64,000 bases of DNA from NCBI RefSeq assembly GCF_050920415.1, contig NZ_CP169309.1; one strand, given 5' to 3'. Made by a program: the position numbers and the translations under genes. The notes below the pieces were generated by a model. It saw only the letters and a program-made list of their open reading frames with translations. It was not told the DNA's origin and did not search any database. The stretch comes from Escherichia coli. Its GTDB lineage: Bacteria > Pseudomonadota > Gammaproteobacteria > Enterobacterales > Enterobacteriaceae. Below are positions 14,068 through 56,500 of the stretch, piece by piece. Positions within the stretch are counted from its first letter, which is position 1. Each line of letters starts with the position of its first letter.

Positions 14068-15303
14068 TTACAACGTTACCGGGTGTTCTTTCTCTCCCTT
14101 CTTAAACTTCACTTCCCCGAGATCAATACAACCAACCGGGCAAACATGACCACAAAGCAGACAACCCACGCACTTCTCGGTATTACAATGCGGTGTGCGC
14201 GTTTTCTCGCTCCATTCCATCGCCTGGTGACCGCCGTCGTAACAGGAAATATAACAGCGTCCACAGCCAACACATTTATCGAGATTGATATGGGGATAGA
14301 CGATATAGCTACGGTCTAAATCTTCCGCCGGGACAATATTGTGATTCGCCAGACCTACCATCTCCTGCAACGAATCAAATCCCTGATCGGCGAGATAATG
14401 CGATAACCCGCTCGCCATATCTTCCACTATCCGATACCCGTACTGCATAATGCCGGTGGTCACCTGTAACGTTGCTGCGCCGAGCAATAAAAACTCTGCC
14501 GCATCTTCCCAGGTTTCAATACCGCCGATACCGCTGATCGGGAAATCGCGCAGCTCTGGATGGGTGCGCATTTGCTGAATAAAGCGTAGGGCGATCGGTT
14601 TTACCGCTTTACCGGAATATCCGGAAATACTCGATTTACCGTTAACGATCGGCATACCAATTTTCTGATTAAGATCGATATTGGTGATGGATTTAACGGT
14701 ATTAATCGCCGCAATGCCATCTGCGCCGCCGCGCTTCGCAGCCAGCGCCACTTCGCACATATCACCGATATTCGGCGTCATCTTCGCCAGCATCGGCAGC
14801 GTAGAACCACGTTTCACTGCCCGACAATATTTTTCTACCAGCTCCGGGCTTTGCCCGACATCGCTACCCATCGCATGAGAAGTCATTTGCGGACAGGAGA
14901 AGTTACACTCAATCATATCGGCACCAGCTTCTTGCACCAGGCGCGCCAGCTCTTCCCACTGCTGCTCATTTTCCCCCATGATTGAAGCTATCAATACTTT
15001 GTCCGGATAATCTTCTTTCAGCCGACGCAGGGCGGCCAGATTCTCCTCCAGAGGATGCTCGGCAATCTGCTCCATATTTTTGAAGCCGATAAAACCGGTA
15101 TCTTCTTTCACCAGATGATCAAAACGTGGTGAGACTTCGTTGGCGATAAAAAAGCCGATCGTTTTAAATACCACGCCACCCCAGCCCGTGTCGTAGGCTT
15201 TGGCGCACATCTCATAGCAGTTGCCTACCGGCGAAGAAGAGAGGCAGAACGGGTTGGGAAACTTCACGCCGCAAAAGGTAATCGAAAGATCTTTCGTTAA
15301 CAT
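14068..15303 (-). CDS. preA: NAD-dependent dihydropyrimidine dehydrogenase subunit PreA (dihydroorotate-dehydrogenase-like plus 2x[4Fe-4S] ferredoxin domain)
   Basis: TIM-barrel DHOD-like sequence with C-terminal ferredoxin cysteine clusters ('[11 protein letters not shown]', '[12 protein letters not shown]'); overlaps preT stop. Confidence 0.9.
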
Positions 15304-16535
15304 GAGCAAGCTCCCTCTAAATAGTGATGAATCGCCTCAGCGGCTTCTTTCCCGGTTTTCACGGCATAAACCACGGTTTTGTCACCCTCAACAATATCGC
15401 CAGCAGCAAAGACTTGCGGGTCGCGGGTCTGGTAATTTTGTGTTTTGATGGTGTTACGCTGCGGCTCTAACTCCGCAAAGGCATCCAGTCTGGCATGCTG
15501 ACCGACGGCGAGAATAATTTTATCTGCCGCCATCGTCAGTTCGCCCGGTAAGCGTACATGCTTAAACGTGACTTTATTGCCTTCCACGGCCACTGGTGTG
15601 AATCCATCGATGATCGAAACGCCCAACTCCCGGGCGCTGGCAAACTCTTTTTCGCTTGCCGGAAACTCATCTAACTCTTCACGTGCTACGCAGGTTACCG
15701 CCTGACAGCCGAGAACTTTCAGCGTGCTGGCAACGTCCATCGCGACATCACCGCCGCCGATAATTAATGCGCTTTGTGGAATGCTGATATCGCCCTGCGC
15801 CTGCCGTGCACGTTGCAAGAAGTCGACGGCAATCTCAACGTCGCTATGCTCAAACAGCGGTAGCCCGGAACCGCCCGACAACCCTACGGTGACAAGTACT
15901 GCGCGGTTTTCCGCTTTCAGTTGCTCCAGGGTGAGTACTTTACCGATTTCGTTATTGCACTTAATGGTCACCCCCATTTTTTCGATACGGGCGATCTCTG
16001 CATCCAGCACGGTTTGCGGCAAACGAAATTGCGGAATACCGTTACACAGCCAGCCACCGGGTTGCGCTTCTTTTTCATAAATAGTGACGTCGTACCCCAT
16101 ATTTGTCAGCGTCACGCTGGCCTGCAATCCAGCAGGACCTGCGCCAATAATGGCGACTTTGCCGAGCGTTTTAGTACCAGGCTGATAAATTTCCATCCCG
16201 GTTTGTTGTTCAAAATCAGTGATAAAACGCTGTAAGCGACCGATATCAATGGGATCATCAACACCGGCACGGGTACAACCGCTTTGACATAATTTCTCCG
16301 TTGGGCAAACTCTGGCGCATACAGCACCTAAGGCATTATTTTCGCGAATTGTCTCGGCAGCGCCTTTAAAATTACGAAAGTAGATTGAGCGAATAAATTT
16401 CCCCGGATCGGTTTGTGCCGGGCAAGCCTGACTACAGGGAGCGTCGTGACATAATAAACAGCGAGAGGCTTCTTTAATCGCCAGTAAAGGCGTAAAAGCC
16501 GGAGTGAGTTCATCCAGATAATTTTGTTGCGGCAT
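15297..16535 (-). CDS. preT: Dihydropyrimidine dehydrogenase subunit PreT (FAD/NAD(P)-binding, GltD-like), 412 aa
   Basis: Rossmann 'IIGAGPAGL' motif, N-terminal Cys-rich segment; operon with preA. Confidence 0.9.
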
Positions 16536-16577: not shown

Positions 16578-16670
16578 ATATACTCGTCATACTTCAAGTT
16601 GCATGTGCTGCGTCTGCGTTAGCTCACCCCAGTCACTTGTCGCCTTCCTGCAACTCGAATTATTTAGAGT
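16578..16670. repeat. Short ERIC/IRU-like imperfect palindrome upstream of preT
   Basis: Shares 'actcgtcatacttcaagttgcatgtgctgcg ... ttcctgcaactcgaattatttagagt' ends with the longer element at 52933-53136. Confidence 0.6.
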
Positions 16671-16819
16671 AAATATTGCGTGCTGATATTAAGGCTAAGC
16701 GTGTGGGGAAATTTAAACTGTGAAAGAATTCACAAATAGCTGCGGTTCAGAATGTTATATCCGCAGCTTATTGACTGAAGTAATAATTATTCTCAATAAT
16801 TAACAGGGGAGGGACAATA

Positions 16820-18855
<2,036 letters not shown>

Positions 18856-27323: not shown

Positions 27324-27379
27324 GAAACCATAGTGATGTTTTTTGACAATGTGTTAGCTCTTTATCAATAGGCCGCACG

Positions 27380-27610
27380 GTTGTTTGGTGGCGTCAAAAT
27401 CGCCGAGGCGTTCCCTGAAGGCCGGGGCAGCCCACATGGATGTGGGCTGAGGGCGCGTTTTACAGGGATGTTACCTCGCGCCCGACCCGGTAGCCGTAAG
27501 GGATAAGCCGAGGGCACCGCGCAGCGGCGATTTTGTTCGCCAGAGCCCGGGGGTGCAGGGGGCGGCGGCGACTGGTCGCCCCCTGCGCGCTCCTTGCGCT
27601 AGTGATTATA
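27380..27610. other. GC-rich, highly structured intergenic element of unknown identity (multiple hairpins)
   Basis: Several strong inverted repeats (gcagcccacatggatgtgggctg; gggcgcg-N19-cgcgccc; gggggcggcggcgactggtcgccccc) read in sequence; no convincing ORF. Confidence 0.3.
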
Positions 27611-51269: not shown

Positions 51270-52358
51270 TCACGGCAGGCGGTGGCGAGCTTGATAATAA
51301 GCCTGCCAGTGAGCTTCTTTATGTGTAGCGACACGTTGTTCGAAGTAACGGCGCAGACGTGCGCGATCTTCTTCGTTATCTTTGACGATGGTTCCGGCAA
51401 TACAGTCCACCAGGTCGGCTGGCTCCCCCGCGCGATTCGCTAAAAACCAGGCGCGGACGCCCACAGCGTGGGCCACGTTCACGGCTTCAGCGGTGGACAT
51501 AATCGCTGTCAGTGTATCCATTGACGTTTTCTTTTCGCCGTTGGCACGCAGATCGCGGAAGGTGCGTACCAGTAACTCAAGTACCGCGTCAGGCACTTTA
51601 TGCGGAATACCGCTATGGGCCAACAAACGCGCCGAAGCACTGGCGACCAGTTCCAGCTCCTGAGCAAAATCCATAATCGGAAAGACAGTTTCAAAGTCGA
51701 ATCGGCGTTTTAGTGCCGCGCTCATTTCATTAACGCCGCGATCGCGGGTATTGGCGGTGGCAATAATATTAAAGCCTTCCCGCGCATAGAGCTGACTGGC
51801 TTCACCAGTGAGTTCCGGCACCGTCATAACCCTGTCAGAAAGCATACCTAACAGACAGTCTTGTACTTCCAGTGGTGTACGCGTTATCTCTTCAAAACGG
51901 ACAATTTTGCCGTCGCGCATTCCTTGGTAGAGCGGGGCAGGGACCAGCGCTTCCGTTGACGGACCATGATTAATAAGCAGGGCGTAGTTCCAGCCGTACT
52001 TGATTTGATCTTCGGTGGTAGATGCGCCGCCCTGGATAGTTAACCCAGCATCGCCGCTAATAGCGGTTGCCAGTAATTCAGACAGGAGAGATTTTGCGGT
52101 GCCAGGTTCCCCCACCAACATCAAACCGCGCCCGGTAGCAAGAGTGACTAACATGCGTTCGACAGCGGAGGGACTAATCACGACTTTACGGCTGATATTT
52201 TGCGCGCTATCGCCAAGAATAAAAGAACGGGCCGCAGGCAAACTTAACTGCCAACCGGGCGGGCAAGGTGCGTTATCATTTTGCTTTAATTTTGCCAGTT
52301 CATCGGCGTATAACACAGCGGCAGGCGGACGCTGCAGATGATTATTCTGCGGTGACAT
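51270..52358 (-). CDS. yehL: MoxR-type AAA+ ATPase, 362 aa
   Basis: Walker A 'GEPGTAKS', AAA_5-like architecture. Confidence 0.85.
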   Translation of the reverse strand: MSPQNNHLQRPPAAVLYADELAKLKQNDNAPCPPGWQLSLPAARSFILGDSAQNISRKVVISPSAVERMLVTLATGRGLMLVGEPGTAKSLLSELLATAISGDAGLTIQGGASTTEDQIKYGWNYALLINHGPSTEALVPAPLYQGMRDGKIVRFEEITRTPLEVQDCLLGMLSDRVMTVPELTGEASQLYAREGFNIIATANTRDRGVNEMSAALKRRFDFETVFPIMDFAQELELVASASARLLAHSGIPHKVPDAVLELLVRTFRDLRANGEKKTSMDTLTAIMSTAEAVNVAHAVGVRAWFLANRAGEPADLVDCIAGTIVKDNEEDRARLRRYFEQRVATHKEAHWQAYYQARHRLP

Positions 52359-52467
52359 ATATTCATCCCTGAAATGTATTAATCAAATAAACGATATTTT
52401 ACGCGCAATAAATGTTTGGCGCATTAGTTGTTTGAGCGGAAAATATCTGGAAAGCAATCACAGTAAA

Positions 52468-52551
52468 TAAAAAAACCTGCTGGTGAGGCAGGTTCTTTTA
52501 TTTACTACTTTCAGGCCTAACACCACGGCCTGTGCAACATCGTGTTCCAAC
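52468..52551 (-). ncRNA. Candidate cis-encoded/divergent antitoxin sRNA (OrzO-like) with sigma70-like promoter and intrinsic terminator
   Basis: Minus-strand -35 TTGCAA (52586-52581), 17-bp spacer, -10 TATAAT (52563-52558); minus-strand terminator stem aacctgc/gcaggtt (52474-52494) followed by a T-run on that strand. The 5' part of the predicted RNA is complementary to a 20-nt segment (52698-52717) in the leader of the downstream toxin ORF (19/20 match to plus-strand 52532-52551). Ends are estimates. Confidence 0.4.
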
Positions 52552-52789
52552 GAACGAATTATAACCATCGGTGGACCCCGTTGCAATTAAGATAATGAGA
52601 TTTATAATCCTGACTGTTGGGACGTTGCGCCGGATCGAACCCATTTCAAGTCCTGGCTACCGGACGGGTGGTGCCGCAGGTAGTGCCCTGATCCGGAGTG
52701 CAACATCGTGGTCCAACATACGTAAACCAGTATCGACAGGCAGTGTAAGGGTAAGATGCTGGTGTTGCGCTCCTTAATAAGGAGAGCGG

Positions 52790-52879
52790 ATGGACACGCT
52801 GACACAAAAGTTAACCGTGCTCATTGCCGTACTGGAGTTATTAGTGGCTCTGTTACGGCTGATTGATTTGTTGAAGTAA
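52790..52879 (+). CDS. zorO: Type I toxin-like small hydrophobic peptide, 29 aa (MDTLTQKLTVLIAVLELLVALLRLIDLLK), ZorO-like
   Basis: Not in ORF track; hand-translated. GGAGAG Shine-Dalgarno 4 nt upstream; single amphipathic/hydrophobic helix ending in Lys, like TisB/ZorO class toxins; long structured 5' leader with plus-strand -10 TATAAT at 52613-52618. Gene symbol assigned from memory of the O157:H7 zor-orz locus, not from a search. Confidence 0.55.
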   Translation: MDTLTQKLTVLIAVLELLVALLRLIDLLK

Positions 52880-52932
52880 CGGGCAAATTGAAACGCATCT
52901 AAGGGGGAATACCGTCTCCCTCTTTAATAAAG

Positions 52933-53136
52933 CTATACTCGTCATAATTCAAGTTGCATGTGCTGCGACTGCGTGTTATTCGGCCCATCCATGGACCTCA
53001 CCCCTTACGGGGCCGCTGCAAGTAGCGTTCAAATCCGCTCCATGCGGATTTGTCGTTCACCCCAGTCACTTACTTTAGTAAGCTCCTGGGGATTCACTCG
53101 CTTATCGCCTTCCTGCAACTTGAATTATTTAGAGTA
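52933..53136. repeat. ERIC (enterobacterial repetitive intergenic consensus) element, long variant
   Basis: Contains reverse complement of the ERIC core 'gtgaatccccaggagcttactaaagtaagtgactgggg' flanked by the terminal inverted repeats 'aagttgcatgtgctgcg ... ttcctgcaacttgaattatttagagt'. Confidence 0.65.
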
Positions 53137-53138
53137 TA

Positions 53139-53456
53139 TTATTCTATTTCTTGGTTGAATATATTCTGTAGTTCACGATTAAAAATAGCGATTACAGTTT
53201 CAGGTGATTCACCTCGTAATTTTCGCTCATCAATAAATTCATCTCTTATATAAATCAACGCATCATTTATTAGCGGGTCGGCATCATCTCTATCACGTTG
53301 ATGAAATGTTGGACGTAGCCGGAATCGTTCCTGTCGATAGACGGAACCTGTAAATAATTCAGAGCATTTATGGATCTCAAGTCTGAAGGAAAACGGATCT
53401 TCAGGTACAGGGACTTCATAATCATAAGTAGCGACCAGCTCTTTTTGCACGATCAT
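53139..53456 (-). CDS. yehK: Small uncharacterised protein, 105 aa
   Basis: ORF of expected size in conserved position between yehL locus and yehI. Confidence 0.65.
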   Translation of the reverse strand: MIVQKELVATYDYEVPVPEDPFSFRLEIHKCSELFTGSVYRQERFRLRPTFHQRDRDDADPLINDALIYIRDEFIDERKLRGESPETVIAIFNRELQNIFNQEIE

Positions 53457-53516
53457 CGCTTTTCCCGGTGGTAAGTCGTGTTGATAACGGGCAGTCGCAT
53501 CACTGCCCGCTGTGTT

Positions 53517-56500
53517 TTAATGGAAAATGACGTCAGGTGCGCTTAACGCTTCACTCAAATCAAACGTATCGAGTTCGGCAAAAGTGACAGATTTATTGTC
53601 ACGGTACACTCGAAGAGAACGGAAGCTCATTAGCGCTTTGCTATCAGCACTGTAGTGGTTAAAACCGGGTGAAAACTTAAGGACCAGCCGATACTCGCCC
53701 AGGTCATAGACACATGCGTCCTCAAAACCTGACTCCCAGCCTTTGTATCGCATTCCCATAAGTTGCCCAACGGTTGCGGATTTACCTTCCCAGCGAGTCA
53801 GGCTGTTACTGGCTGACTCGTCAGGTGTGAGCAGCACTGTGCGCCGCATCAACTGGCGAAAAGGCTGCATAATTTCGTAATCGGCAAAAACCTGTGCAAA
53901 TTCACTGCGCATTTCTGCTGTCATTTCTAACGGGTGGGCAATGCCAATCAGAGCATCCGCAGGCAGGTCAATTGGCTCATCTTGTGCGTTGCAGAACTCC
54001 CCCTCAGCGGCCACACGAAAGGCGTTGAGTAAACGACGCGGTTCATTTGCCGGATAAACCGCCCATATTAATCGCTGAGTAACCAGGCGAGTAAAGGGAT
54101 GATTAACAAACAGAGAATGAAAATCTGCCAGCGACCAGCGTCGGGTGGTGCGTAGGGCAGTTTCAAGACGCGGGAGCAGGTTTTTGCTCACCTGAGTGGC
54201 ATCTTTTTTTAGCCCTTTTAGTCGGGCCAGTGCCTCGGGCGCTTTCAGTTGATCGTCATCGGCGCGCAACCGGGGAACACTTTTCTGGCGAACGTTTTGC
54301 TGATCAAAGATAACCGGGTTGAGGTTTTCATCGAAGCGAACGGTAAACTGCCGGGGACCAAAATCAAATATCAACGCCTGCGGATCATCCAGGCCCAGTG
54401 TTGGGACTAATCTGTCCGCTAACTCTTCCTGGCTTAGTCCACGATTTTCTGCGACCACCTGAAGAAATTCCGCCGCGTTATCACGTAAGGGACGGGATTT
54501 CGCCCGTTGCGATATATGATGCAGCTGTATCAGTGCCATATCATTATTCATCTGAGTAAGTATATTCAGACCACTGACAGCACGGGCAGATTTGCCCTCT
54601 TGAGGCCAGGCAAGGATCTGTGTCGTCAGATTCCGAGCCGTGCTTTCGTCACCAAAGAGACTTAACGCCAAAAAAGCCCAGTTGTCTTTTGCGGGGGCGC
54701 CAGCCTGTTGCCAGGCGGTGAAGAGATCCCAGGCAAAAGCGGCCAGCGTTTGTGGCTGGCAGAACGTTTTCAGTTGTTCCAGCCCGCAATAAAAACGTCC
54801 GCCCTGGGTAAAGCGCAGCATTTCGCCAATAATTTCCAGAGCGTCATCAGTAACAGGTTGATTATTCGTGATAAGTCTCGGCCTGGACCACATTGCCGGA
54901 TGCCAGAAATCAGGGGCTTTGGGAATGCGTGCCGGGTAAATCTCTATTGGACTCTGTTTAAGTAATTGCTCCAGGGCAGGCCATACATCTGTACGCTGCC
55001 AACGATTGGCTACAGTTTGTAGCAATTCGCCATGTCCTTGTTCATACAGTAAACGCAGAGCATTGAGTGCCGCTTCGCTGTTATCGCCAGACCTGGCAAA
55101 GATTAATGGGATCAGCGCCGTAGCCGTATGCTCCGGCCATTGTAAAATCCACTGGCGAGCCAGATTACGCTGGCCCGCAAAACGATGCCAGACGCGGGCA
55201 ACGGGCAGCGCCAGTTCTGTTGCGCCAAAATGAATCAGCAGCGGAAATATCTCTTTGGGATGTCGGGCAAAGGCGGTGATTAATCCGGGCAAAGCATCGG
55301 TACCCAGCACACTTAACAGATATTCCACCCCGGTGTAATGAAAATCAGCCGCGACAATTTGTTGCCAGCACGATACTGCCATTTCGCGCGGCATTTGCGC
55401 GATAAGGTACAGATTCCACACTCCCCAACGCTTTTCATCAGTGTAATTAAATTTGCGTTGGAAAGTTCGCCACCCCTCCATCAACGCAACGCTATCTTGT
55501 GCCAGTAATGCGCTGGCGGCCTCTTCCCGGTAGTGTTTATTTTCAGTCTGTTTTGCCTGATAATTGAGCAATCTTCCTAATGAAGTATGTGTCTCTAGTT
55601 GATCGGTATCCAGAGCATCCAACTGTCCTGTGAGAATAAACTCATTAAACTTCCACCTGTGATCTTCAAAACCTAATTCCCGCAAGAAGGTATCGGTTCC
55701 TCTGCTAGCGAGACGTTCGTCAAAAGGCATGGCGCTAAAATGGCTGATTGTAGTTTGTTGTTCCTGCGTCCAGTGTTCCTGGGACGACCTGTACGCTTGC
55801 GGTACAAGCGTAAGTTCAGGTAGCGAAAAGTGAGTTATGGAAGTCTTTTTTCTGCCACGCCACGGTGGCGAAACGAGGATTTCAGGCAGACTGCTGTTAT
55901 CGGTGCTATCAATAACCGGTTTTGGCGAAGCCGATAAATAACTATTCACCACTGCCCGGGCTTGAGTACTTAACCACGGCATCACCTCTTCTGCCAGTTG
56001 TGGCTGCGATGCCATCAGCGTTTGTAACAGCGTATGCCAGTATTCATCACGTGCTTTTTGCTGTGCAGGCAGCTTTTTGTCTTCGATGATAGGATAACCA
56101 GGGCGCGCAGGGGGTTCTTTTAACGCCAGTAGTTCTGCCAGTGCGGCGAGCGTCGCATGGGGAAAGTTTTTACTGTATTTAGCCACACGTTGCAGGCTGG
56201 GTTTGTTTTTATCGGCAACTAACAGCAAGATGCGAATAACTTGCGGATGGTTAATTTGTACCAGCAGGCTACCGCAATCTTCTTTATGGGCATACATCGC
56301 GAGGCGTGGAACGGCTGCAATTCCCTGTTCGCGCAAAAGGGCGGCGCAGGCCGCGTAGCCGAAGTGGTTTTCATGCGACATGTAGCTGGCTTCGCGATCG
56401 CTAAATATATCCTGGCTCCAGTAGCGTTCGAGTTTTCTCACCGCTCTGGGGTCATTAGCAACAACTTTTAACCACTCCTTAGAATGAAAATGAGTCCGCG

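What the first reader, a model, noticed from the sequence alone, without database searches (positions are those of the whole stretch)
52933..53136. Two ERIC-family repeats of different length (16578-16670 short; 52933-53136 long) flanking accessory or regulatory junctions
Both share the terminal inverted repeats of ERIC/IRU, but the second carries an ~110-bp internal segment absent from the first. The long copy lies directly between the zorO-like toxin gene and yehK and may act as a terminator or mRNA stabiliser, or mark the insertion history of the TA locus.
Basis: partly seen in the sequence, partly recalled or inferred. Interest (0 to 1): 0.25.

Follow-up and report, generated by a model that had tools for sequence, protein, structure and literature searches.

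The report
ERIC repeats, one carrying a nested element
Both sequences are ordinary copies of a well-known enterobacterial junk-DNA repeat (ERIC), one shortened by a deletion and one lengthened by a second small structured mobile element nested inside it, and that nested element turns out to be widespread in other bacteria.

Summary
Window 52934-53138 (205 bp) and 16579-16671 (93 bp) are both ERIC/IRU repeats.

The ~110-bp length difference has two separate causes:
- The long copy carries a 78-bp insertion (52975-53052). Without it, the copy is exactly 127 bp and aligns without gaps to a published ERIC sequence (92%).
- The short copy has lost 32 central bp between TCACTT direct repeats.

Both variant types appear in the 1996-97 ERIC literature.

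The long copy lies between zorO and yehK. It starts after zorO's own terminator and abuts the yehK stop codon, so it belongs to the yehK 3' region, not to zorO. The site varies among E. coli genomes: empty, 56-bp, 126-bp and 204-bp alleles occur. K-12-type strains keep only the right ERIC tip, at a deletion that removed zorO. The element therefore looks dispensable.

The 78-bp insert is not ERIC sequence. It is a four-hairpin module found in many gammaproteobacterial orders. It inserts on its own at T^TC sites inside other repeats, and usually has GGA in two hairpin loops. Its function and means of movement are unknown.

The parts
52934..53138 (+). Long ERIC/IRU repeat, 205 bp including the terminal TA dinucleotides. 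It consists of a 127-bp ERIC plus a 78-bp nested insert.
   Evidence: The inverted termini were found. With the insert removed, the copy aligns without gaps to the published 127-nt ERIC, 117/127 identical. As RNA it folds at -81.9 kcal/mol (z -9.0) on the + strand and -96.5 kcal/mol (z -9.8) on the - strand.
52934..52958 (+). Left terminal inverted repeat of the long ERIC.
   Evidence: pair I1: 25 nt, 88% complementary to 53114-53138.
53114..53138 (+). Right terminal inverted repeat of the long ERIC. Its last ~19 bases are all that remain of the ERIC in K-12-type strains.
   Evidence: I1. The alignment shows BW25113 (L008) joining the zorO 5' UTR (...ACCAATTT) to GAATTATTTAGAGTATA.
52975..53052 (-). 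78-bp nested four-hairpin module, the 'insertion' in the long ERIC. The strand given is the one on which the hairpin loops read GGA and on which the Rfam sRNA family AaHKsRNA22 aligns. Which strand is functional is not settled.
   Evidence: The same insert lies at the same ERIC position at four E. coli loci. A covariance model built from non-enteric copies, without the hairpin used to fetch them, hits 52970-53030(-) at 39.6 bits, E about 4e-10. AaHKsRNA22 scores 23.2 bits against a gathering score of 39.8.
53031..53051 (-). Module hairpin P1: AAATCCGC[ATGGA]GCGGATTT as read on the - strand.
   Evidence: and 52/53. The pattern derived from this hairpin found at least 120 stretches in other Gammaproteobacteria.
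52982..52997 (-). Module hairpin P4: GGUCC[AUGGAU]GGGCC on the - strand, with loop motif C-ANGGAU-G.
   Evidence: Searches show many compensatory changes in this stem. GGA sits in this loop in 94 of 122 non-E. coli copies, against 7-13 in shuffles.
16579..16671 (+). Short ERIC, 93 bp. A 32-bp central deletion lies between TCACTT direct repeats, and one terminal TA is lost. It sits between preT and yeiS.
   Evidence: In strain AR_0150 (L010) the same locus holds a full ERIC that also carries the 78-bp insert.
52790..52879 (+). zorO type I toxin ORF, 29 aa (MDTLTQKLTVLIAVLELLVALLRLIDLLK).
   Evidence: ORF list. ZorO is described as a 29-aa toxin in PMC6669753 and PMC11264685.
52903..52929 (+). 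zorO's own terminator-like hairpin plus T-run, upstream of the ERIC.
   Evidence: It is conserved in strains with an empty ERIC site. Its position agrees with the 280/310-nt transcripts reported in PMC3919570.
52469..52544 (-). OrzO antitoxin sRNA gene.
   Evidence: Rfam RF02083, 98.9 bits against a gathering score of 60, E 3.7e-16.
53139..53456 (-). yehK, 105 aa. Its TAA stop codon directly abuts the ERIC terminus.
   Evidence: RefSeq annotation of the identical strain and ORF list.

Best explanation
Both features are copies of ERIC/IRU, the 127-bp palindromic, MITE-like repeat of enterobacteria that inserts at TA dinucleotides.

The copy at 16579-16671 is a deletion derivative. It lost 32 central bp by slippage between 6-bp direct repeats that flank the tip of the palindrome.

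The copy at 52934-53138 is a full 127-bp ERIC. It inserted at the TA of the ancestral yehK stop codon (TAG). It also carries, in its left arm, a 78-bp nested element of the kind reported in 1997 as ERIC 'interruptions'.

At this locus the ERIC is most likely a dispensable passenger:
- It lies beyond the zorO terminator, so it is not part of the zorO mRNA.
- It would be transcribed only as the 3' untranslated end of yehK. There it would fold into a long branched hairpin that may alter 3'-end stability or processing (inferred, not shown).
- Its only demonstrated consequence for the toxin-antitoxin locus is structural. In K-12-type genomes, a deletion running from the zorO 5' UTR into the ERIC right arm removed zorO and left orzO as an orphan.

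The 78-bp insert is an independent mobile module:
- It has four hairpins and is found at three TTC sites within ERICs.
- It occurs in unrelated repeats of many gammaproteobacterial orders, always in one orientation and immediately 5' of TC.
For: ERIC identity:
- Gapless 117/127 match to the published ERIC once the insert is removed, and 93.7% for the short copy.
- Termini confirmed.

TA target:
- Strains P19_598 and W have an empty site...AAAGC-TA-TTTTTC..., and a yehK one codon longer, ending ...EIEK-TAG. Filled alleles read ...AAAGC-TA-[TACTCG...GAGTA]-TA-TTATTC....

Allelic series at the one site:
- 204-205 bp in the window, AHB12 and UTI89.
- 126 bp in S22EC.
- 56 bp in E105 and 20R2R, with the deletion lying between CTGCGACT repeats.
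- Empty in P19_598 and W.
- Right-tip remnant in BW25113.
- An evenly spaced sample of 60 of 5414 records gives, judged by coverage class, roughly 5% long, 12% canonical, 20% mini, 25% empty and 33% K-12-type.

zorO independence:
- zorO has its own terminator.
- Transcript lengths are 280/310 nt and the 5' UTR is 174 nt.

Insert as an independent module:
- It is present in 648 of 5426 E. coli genomes, at four or more loci, and always at the same ERIC position.
- One ERIC carries three modules, each at a consensus TTC.
- A Rheinheimera repeat exists in empty (54-55 nt) and filled (119-127 nt) forms that differ exactly by the module.
- The structure is supported by covariation: 87.8% of cells paired against 71.6% in shuffles and 31-50% in slid controls, and 13 of 17 pairs show double changes.
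- The independent covariance-model hit on the window has E about 4e-10.
Against: - No expression data were available, so transcription of the ERIC as the yehK 3' UTR, and any effect on RNA stability, are inferred.
- The direction of change is not resolved: insert gain versus precise loss, and ERIC insertion versus excision. Alleles were not placed on a strain phylogeny.
- The AAA-to-TAA change that gives yehK its stop codon in filled alleles could pre-date or follow the insertion.
- The allele frequencies rest on coverage classes, with only one sequence checked per class.
- The original papers on ERIC interruptions and on ERIC evolution in E. coli (Cromie 1997, Sharp 1997, Wilson and Sharp 2006) could not be read. 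I know of them from my own recollection and from reference lists.
Confidence: 0.85

Rival explanations
1. The long ERIC is a functional 3' element of zorO, a terminator or mRNA stabiliser that tunes toxin expression.
For: The ERIC lies 55 bases downstream of the zorO stop codon on the same strand. It folds into a very stable hairpin.
Against: - zorO has its own conserved terminator-like hairpin at 52903-52929.
- The published transcript sizes end there.
- zorO-bearing strains with an empty ERIC site or only a 56-bp ERIC are common.
Confidence: 0.05
2. The ERIC acts on yehK. As the first sequence after the yehK stop codon, its hairpin either blocks 3'-to-5' exonucleases (stabilising the mRNA) or creates an RNase cleavage site (destabilising it), as reported for ERICs in Yersinia.
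For: - The ERIC abuts the yehK stop codon.
- The consensus scan finds no terminator-like site on the yehK strand between the stop codon and the ERIC or within it. The only minus-strand site it calls in 52300-53600 is the OrzO terminator at 52507-52461.
- The yehK-sense strand folds at -96.5 kcal/mol, z -9.8.
- The review PMC3184786 summarises that an ERIC downstream of a gene can create an RNase E site and trigger decay of the upstream mRNA.
Against: - No expression data are available for this locus.
- yehK is a frameshifted pseudogene in several strains that carry the ERIC, namely UTI89, AHB12 and S22EC.
- About a quarter of genomes lack the ERIC. Together these points argue against a selected role.
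Confidence: 0.3
3. The nested 78-nt module is a CsrA/RsmA-binding cassette. When transcribed on the window's minus strand, it presents two GGA-containing hairpin loops about 50 nt apart. That would bring the host transcript under CsrA control, or titrate CsrA.
For: - The P4 loop reads C-A-N-G-G-A-U-G with an invariant closing C-G pair.
- GGA sits in that loop in 94 of 122 copies not constrained by the search, against 7-13 in shuffles and 4 on the other strand.
- The P1 loop reads (C/A)(A/U)GGA.
- CsrA sites are GGA in hairpin loops and usually come in pairs (PMC4383904; PMC8144298).
- The GGA strand is the sense strand of all annotated flanking genes at 4 of 4 E. coli loci.
Against: - The GGA in P1 was fixed by the search pattern.
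- A third module type in the same ERICs (L013 898-983) and the related Rfam family AaHKsRNA22 keep the four-hairpin architecture but have no GGA loops. GGA is therefore not what defines the family.
- The G-U versus A-C test for the transcribed strand was inconclusive: 10 versus 11 in P2-P4.
- A crude test of orientation relative to flanking ORFs gave only 36 versus 26.
- No binding data exist.
Confidence: 0.2
4. The extra internal segment is unique local sequence or a chance palindrome, not a repeat-family member.
For: None found.
Against: The same 78 bp occur at 90% identity or more in 644 of the 648 E. coli genomes that hold it, at four or more loci. Homologues occur in many genera.
Confidence: 0.01

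Closest known systems
ERIC / IRU (RU-1) repeats of Enterobacteriaceae (Sharples & Lloyd 1990; Hulton et al. 1991; Wilson & Sharp 2006), as cited in PMC2759123 and PMC3184786
   Same: 127-bp imperfect palindrome, conserved termini, TA ends with TA target duplication, intergenic location, and several copies per genome. Both window copies match on sequence.
   Different: Nothing essential. One copy carries a deletion and the other an insertion.
ERIC 'sequence interruptions' / 'insertions within ERIC sequences' (Cromie, Collins & Leach 1997; Sharp 1997; references 13-14 of PMC3696847). Their content is recalled from memory and was not read here.
   Same: An insertion of about 70 bp at a specific internal site that leaves the whole element able to fold well as RNA.
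   Different: Here the insert is also shown to occur outside ERICs, in other orders, with empty and filled sites. I could not check whether this was reported before.
Palindrome-induced deletions in ERIC (Sharp & Leach 1996; reference 12 of PMC3696847)
   Same: The short copy (32 bp lost between TCACTT repeats) and the 56-bp alleles at the yehK site (loss between CTGCGACT repeats) both remove the centre of the palindrome between short direct repeats.
   Different: None noted.
Rfam RF02902 AaHKsRNA22 (Aggregatibacter sRNA 22)
   Same: The same order of four hairpins and the same conserved joiners (ACAAA......UUUGAAC, GAG, CGA). It aligns to the window's insert on the minus strand, and to a third module type in other ERICs at 36.5 and 33.9 bits.
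   Different: All scores fall below the family's gathering score of 39.8, and the window's insert reaches only 23.2 bits. The Aggregatibacter consensus has no GGA in its loops.
CsrA/RsmA-binding RNAs (CsrB, RsmY) and the TwoAYGGAY motif (RF01731)
   Same: Hairpins whose loops read A-N-GGA-U closed by C-G, occurring in pairs.
   Different: The insert gives no TwoAYGGAY hit even at E up to 10. It has two extra hairpins and conserved joiners, it is a mobile insertion rather than a gene, and CsrA binding is untested.
Nested MITEs and hairpin-ended single-strand transposons (IS200/IS605-type miniature derivatives). Resemblance is recalled from memory only.
   Same: Small size, no coding capacity, hairpins near both ends, orientation-specific insertion next to a short fixed sequence (T^TC), and no obvious target duplication.
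   Different: No associated transposase was found or looked for systematically. The end sequences were not compared with any known IS.

Membership tests
ERIC / IRU | Sequence match to the ~127-bp consensus over its full length | tested here: met
   - The long copy without its insert matches SeRU-1 at 117/127 with no gaps, and the printed E. coli consensus at 88.7%.
- The short copy matches at 89/95, with one 32-bp gap.
ERIC / IRU | Terminal inverted repeats / imperfect palindrome | tested here: met
   The arms are 25 nt and 88% complementary. Whole-element folds have z-scores of -9.0 and -9.8.
ERIC / IRU | TA at both ends and TA target-site duplication | tested here: met
   The empty site in P19_598 has a single TA where filled alleles have TA-[ERIC]-TA. 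The feature itself is as described in PMC2759123.
ERIC / IRU | Intergenic, within transcribed regions | tested here: inconclusive
   Both copies are intergenic: zorO/yehK and yeiS/preT. Transcription could not be tested.
Interrupted (long) ERIC variants | Insertion of about 70 bp at a specific internal site, recurring in different copies | tested here: met
   The 78-bp insert lies after CTGCGn and before TCGyTCACCCC at four E. coli loci. Two further sites are occupied in L013.
Interrupted (long) ERIC variants | The interrupted element still folds into a stable RNA structure | tested here: met
   The ERIC stem is kept, and the insert forms four small hairpins branching from it.
Deleted (short) ERIC variants | Loss of the palindrome centre between short direct repeats | tested here: met
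   The 32-bp gap is flanked by TCACTT in the full-length allele of the same locus, L010.
Rfam RF02902 AaHKsRNA22 | Covariance-model score at or above the gathering score (39.8 bits) | tested here: not met
   The window's insert scores 23.2 bits. The best related module, L013 898-983, scores 36.5 bits.
Rfam RF01731 TwoAYGGAY | Covariance-model match | tested here: not met
   No hit on 52900-53170 at E up to 10. By contrast, a different element at window 27394-27533 scores 30.2 bits.
CsrA/RsmA-binding RNA | Two or more GGA motifs in hairpin loops, within the reach of one CsrA dimer | tested here: met
   On the minus strand the loops are AUGGA (53031-53051) and AUGGAU (52982-52997), with the GGA motifs about 50 nt apart.
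CsrA/RsmA-binding RNA | Demonstrated binding of CsrA, and transcription of that strand | not testable with these tools
   This needs gel-shift, CLIP and RNA-seq experiments.
[quoted passage not shown] | OrzO sRNA and the 29-aa ZorO ORF, divergently arranged | tested here: met
   OrzO matches RF02083 at 98.9 bits. The ZorO ORF is at 52790-52879. Divergent promoter-like sites were found.

The most novel reading that the evidence does not exclude
The 78-bp 'insertion' is not a variant of ERIC. It is a copy of a separate mobile, structured element whose description I could not find.

Properties of the element:
- It is a ~75-nt four-hairpin module spread across Enterobacterales, Xanthomonadales, Methylococcales, Rheinheimera and its relatives, and probably Pasteurellaceae.
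- It inserts in one orientation at T^TC.
- It lands preferentially inside other palindromic repeats: three sites in ERIC, a Rheinheimera repeat, and even a group II intron.

Possible function:
- Its two GGA loops could turn any transcript that carries it (here the yehK 3' end) into a ligand of the global regulator CsrA/RsmA.
- That would make it a portable post-transcriptional control cassette and a possible raw material for Csr/Rsm decoy RNAs.
Probability: 0.2. Interest if true: 0.65.

Novelty: already known. Interest (0 to 1): 0.3.

Why it matters
As stated, the finding is routine. ERIC repeats and their short and long variants have been known for about 30 years, and this copy looks like a dispensable passenger.

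Two by-products are of some use:
- **Origin of orphan orzO.** The ERIC explains the structure of the 'orphan orzO' genomes, reported as more than 30% of E. coli (PMC11264685). zorO was lost through a deletion that ends in the ERIC right arm.
- **Nature of the ERIC 'interruption'.** The interruption behaves as an independent element with clear empty and filled sites in several host repeats and bacterial orders. This makes an old open question, how ERICs and their inserts move and what they do as RNA, more directly testable.

Tried and rejected
- **Strand of selection from wobble pairs.** The P1 hairpin favours the minus strand (8 versus 1). P2-P4 give 10 G-U against 11 A-C. Inconclusive.
- **An apparent G-U-rich pair from RNAalifold** (alignment columns 73-97). 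It conflicts with hairpin P3 and was discarded.
- **Orientation of modules relative to neighbouring ORFs in 81 non-E. coli loci,** using crude ORF calls. The result, 36 co-oriented upstream genes against 26, is not convincing.
- **TwoAYGGAY membership of the insert.** No hit.
- **Search for truncated modules that might mark a larger autonomous element.** Most of the 28 'failures' were complete modules that RNAfold had folded differently, so there was no lead.
- **Full-text search for the hairpin sequences.** No paper found.
- **Reading the primary literature.** Wilson & Sharp 2006 and De Gregorio 2005 are not held in the library.
- **Weak Rfam hits** (Thr_leader, Ysr49, CRISPR-DR36, mir-1285 and others). 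All were dismissed as chance or as trivial matches to a hairpin.

Full report
**Observation**

The window holds exactly two ERIC copies.
- ERIC-arm patterns of 21 and 30 nt match only at 16592-16612/16642-16671 and 52947-52967/53107-53136. Shuffled sequence gave no matches.
- The long copy spans 52934-53138. Its 25-nt terminal inverted repeats are 88% complementary.
- The short copy spans 16579-16671.

I compared both with the 127-nt ERIC sequences printed in Delihas 2007 (PMC2759123).
- The long copy contains one 78-bp block (52975-53052) that has no counterpart in the consensus. Without it, the copy is exactly 127 bp and aligns without gaps: 117/127 to the Salmonella ERIC and 88.7% to the E. 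coli consensus.
- The short copy is 93.7% identical, with a single 32-bp central gap.

**Context**

The window is identical over 1301 bp to E. coli MFDS1022581. Around the long ERIC:

| Feature | Coordinates | Evidence |
|---|---|---|
| yehL | 51270-52358 (-) | |
| OrzO sRNA | 52469-52544 (-) | Rfam, 98.9 bits |
| Divergent promoter-like sites | 52558-52608 | |
| 29-aa ZorO ORF | 52790-52879 (+) | |
| Terminator-like hairpin with T-run | 52903-52929 (+) | |
| Long ERIC | 52934-53138 | |
| yehK, stop codon touching the ERIC | 53139-53456 (-) | |

The short ERIC lies between preT (15297-16535, -) and yeiS (16820-17059, -).

**Relation to zorO and yehK**

- Published zorO transcripts are about 280 and 310 nt (PMC3919570), and the 5' UTR is 174 nt (PMC5397157).
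- Counting from the promoter-like site, this puts the 3' end at about 52896-52926. That is at zorO's own terminator and before the ERIC.
- That terminator is conserved in strains that have no ERIC at this site.
- The ERIC is therefore not needed for zorO termination and is probably not in its mRNA.
- On the yehK strand no terminator-like site precedes the ERIC. The yehK-sense strand of the ERIC folds at -96.5 kcal/mol, z -9.8.
- An effect on the yehK 3' end is thus possible but untested. The review PMC3184786 reports such effects for ERICs in Yersinia.

**Comparative genomics of the site**

One representative of each coverage class from a search of 5426 E. coli genomes was aligned. The result is an allelic series at one orthologous position.

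| Allele | Strains checked |
|---|---|
| 204-205 bp | window, AHB12, UTI89 |
| Canonical 126-bp ERIC that lacks exactly the insert | S22EC |
| 56-bp mini-ERIC, deleted between CTGCGACT repeats | E105; 20R2R (an O157-like strain with tandem zorO/zorP) |
| Empty site | P19_598, W |
| Right ERIC tip only | BW25113 (K-12 type) |

- The empty site reads AAAGC-TA-TTTTTC, and yehK there ends ...EIEK-TAG. Filled sites read AAAGC-TA-[ERIC]-TA-TTATTC, and yehK ends one codon earlier at TAA.
- The ERIC therefore landed in the TA of the yehK stop codon, with the TA duplication expected of ERICs.
- In the K-12 type, the zorO 5' UTR (...ACCAATTT) is joined directly to the last ~19 bases of the ERIC (GAATTATTTAGAGTATA). 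This corresponds to loss of window 52647-53121.
- That deletion removed zorO and left orzO. It gives a structural explanation for the 'orz-only' genomes reported as more than 30% of E. coli (PMC11264685), a paper that does not mention ERIC.
- In an evenly spaced sample of 60 records, the coverage classes were roughly 5% long, 12% canonical, 20% mini, 25% empty and 33% K-12-type. Only one sequence per class was checked.

**The 78-bp insert within E. coli**

- It occurs in 648 of 5426 E. coli genomes, at four or more loci: yehL-yehK, preT-yeiS, yajO-dxs, and a DUF3969/BI-1 locus.
- It is always inside an ERIC, at the same position and in the same orientation.
- The preT-yeiS locus is the very site of the window's short copy. 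Strain AR_0150 has there a full ERIC with the insert.
- One E. coli ERIC (MB53) carries three such modules, and an E. albertii ERIC carries two. All three insertion points coincide with a TTC of the ERIC consensus, and every module ends ...TTTG-TC.

**The insert beyond E. coli**

- A degenerate 24-nt pattern for its 3' hairpin found at least 120 stretches among one-genome-per-species contigs. By my own estimate, chance would give about 0.3.
- The hits fall in Rheinheimera, Alishewanella, Arsukibacterium, Methylobacter and relatives, Rhodanobacter, Dyella, Lysobacteraceae, Xenorhabdus, Citrobacter and others. There are often many copies per genome.
- The adjacent ~55 nt, which the pattern did not constrain, show the same architecture everywhere.
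- The three hairpins outside the pattern hairpin are supported by covariation: 87.8% of cells paired against 71.6% in shuffles and 31-50% in slid controls, and 13 of 17 pairs carry compensatory changes.
- A covariance model was built only from non-enteric copies and excluded the pattern hairpin. It hits the window's insert at 39.6 bits, E about 4e-10, and hits all E. coli copies.
- A Rheinheimera repeat exists in empty (...CTCGATTCCGGCC...) and filled (...CTCGATT[module]TCAGC...) forms.
- The module therefore moves on its own, in one orientation, to T^TC. The junction is ambiguous by one base.

**What the module might do**

- Read on the window's minus strand, two of its loops carry GGA. The unconstrained one reads C-ANGGAU-G in 94 of 122 copies, against 7-13 in shuffles and 4 on the other strand.
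- This is the textbook CsrA/RsmA site (PMC4383904; PMC8144298).
- That strand is also the sense strand of all annotated neighbouring genes at the four E. coli loci, and it is the strand on which the Rfam sRNA family AaHKsRNA22 aligns (23.2 bits here; 36.5 bits on a third module type; gathering score 39.8).
- Against this idea: the third module type and AaHKsRNA22 lack GGA loops, the wobble-pair test for strand is inconclusive, and nothing is known about expression or binding.
- I therefore keep CsrA binding as a minority hypothesis and regard the mechanism of mobility as unknown.

**Verdict**

- The short and long ERIC variants are the deletion and 'interruption' forms already in the literature (references in PMC3696847; their content is from my recollection).
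- The suggested role for zorO is not supported.
- The more interesting residue is the nested module and the ERIC-anchored deletion that created orphan orzO.

Noticed in passing
window 27394-27533 (+), within a GC-rich intergenic element at about 27370-27610: A separate repeat with hairpin loops CAUGGAUG and ACAGGGAUGU. It matches Rfam TwoAYGGAY (RF01731) at 30.2 bits (gathering score 43, E 0.007). The 261-bp stretch occurs at a median of 3 places per E. coli genome. The module model R1 also picked it up weakly (19.3 bits).
   Followed up: partly
window 52647-53121, compared with L008 (BW25113): K-12-type genomes lost zorO through a deletion running from the zorO 5' UTR to the right arm of the ERIC, with a 2-nt TT overlap at the junction. 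This leaves orzO as an orphan antitoxin. The class makes up about a third of sampled genomes.
   Followed up: partly
window 53139-53141 (yehK stop codon); L005, L007: The ERIC target TA is the TA of the ancestral yehK stop codon TAG. ERIC-bearing alleles have yehK one codon shorter, through an AAA-to-TAA change. Without that change, yehK would read about 15 codons into the ERIC. yehK is annotated as frameshifted in UTI89, AHB12 and S22EC.
   Followed up: partly
L013 660-1005 (E. coli MB53); L020 5765-6035 (E. albertii): These single ERICs carry three (MB53) or two (E. albertii) nested modules of different subtypes, each at a TTC of the ERIC consensus. The third subtype has no GGA loops and scores 36.5 and 33.9 bits against Rfam AaHKsRNA22.
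   Followed up: yes
L034 216-317 (Aliidiomarina maris): A copy of the module lies inside a group II intron, between the Rfam segments group-II-D1D4-3 (470-298) and D1D4-1 (201-120) on the same strand.
   Followed up: no
L089 1791, L095 2511, L105, L096 versus L015, L088, L094, L130 (Rheinheimera): A Rheinheimera palindromic repeat (ACGCCGT...CAACGGT) itself carries hairpins with (C)ATCCNTG loops. It occurs with and without the nested module, giving clean empty and filled site pairs.
   Followed up: yes
L006 and L007 (20R2R, E. coli W): Strains with tandem zorO/zorP differ at the ERIC site. The O157-like 20R2R has the 56-bp mini-ERIC after the second copy, whereas W has none.
   Followed up: no
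L012 701-766 (E. coli JNE120442, yajO-dxs): This copy of the insert has a 12-bp internal deletion that removes the small CCCC/GGGG hairpin. It shows that the nested module decays by small deletions, as ERIC itself does.
   Followed up: no
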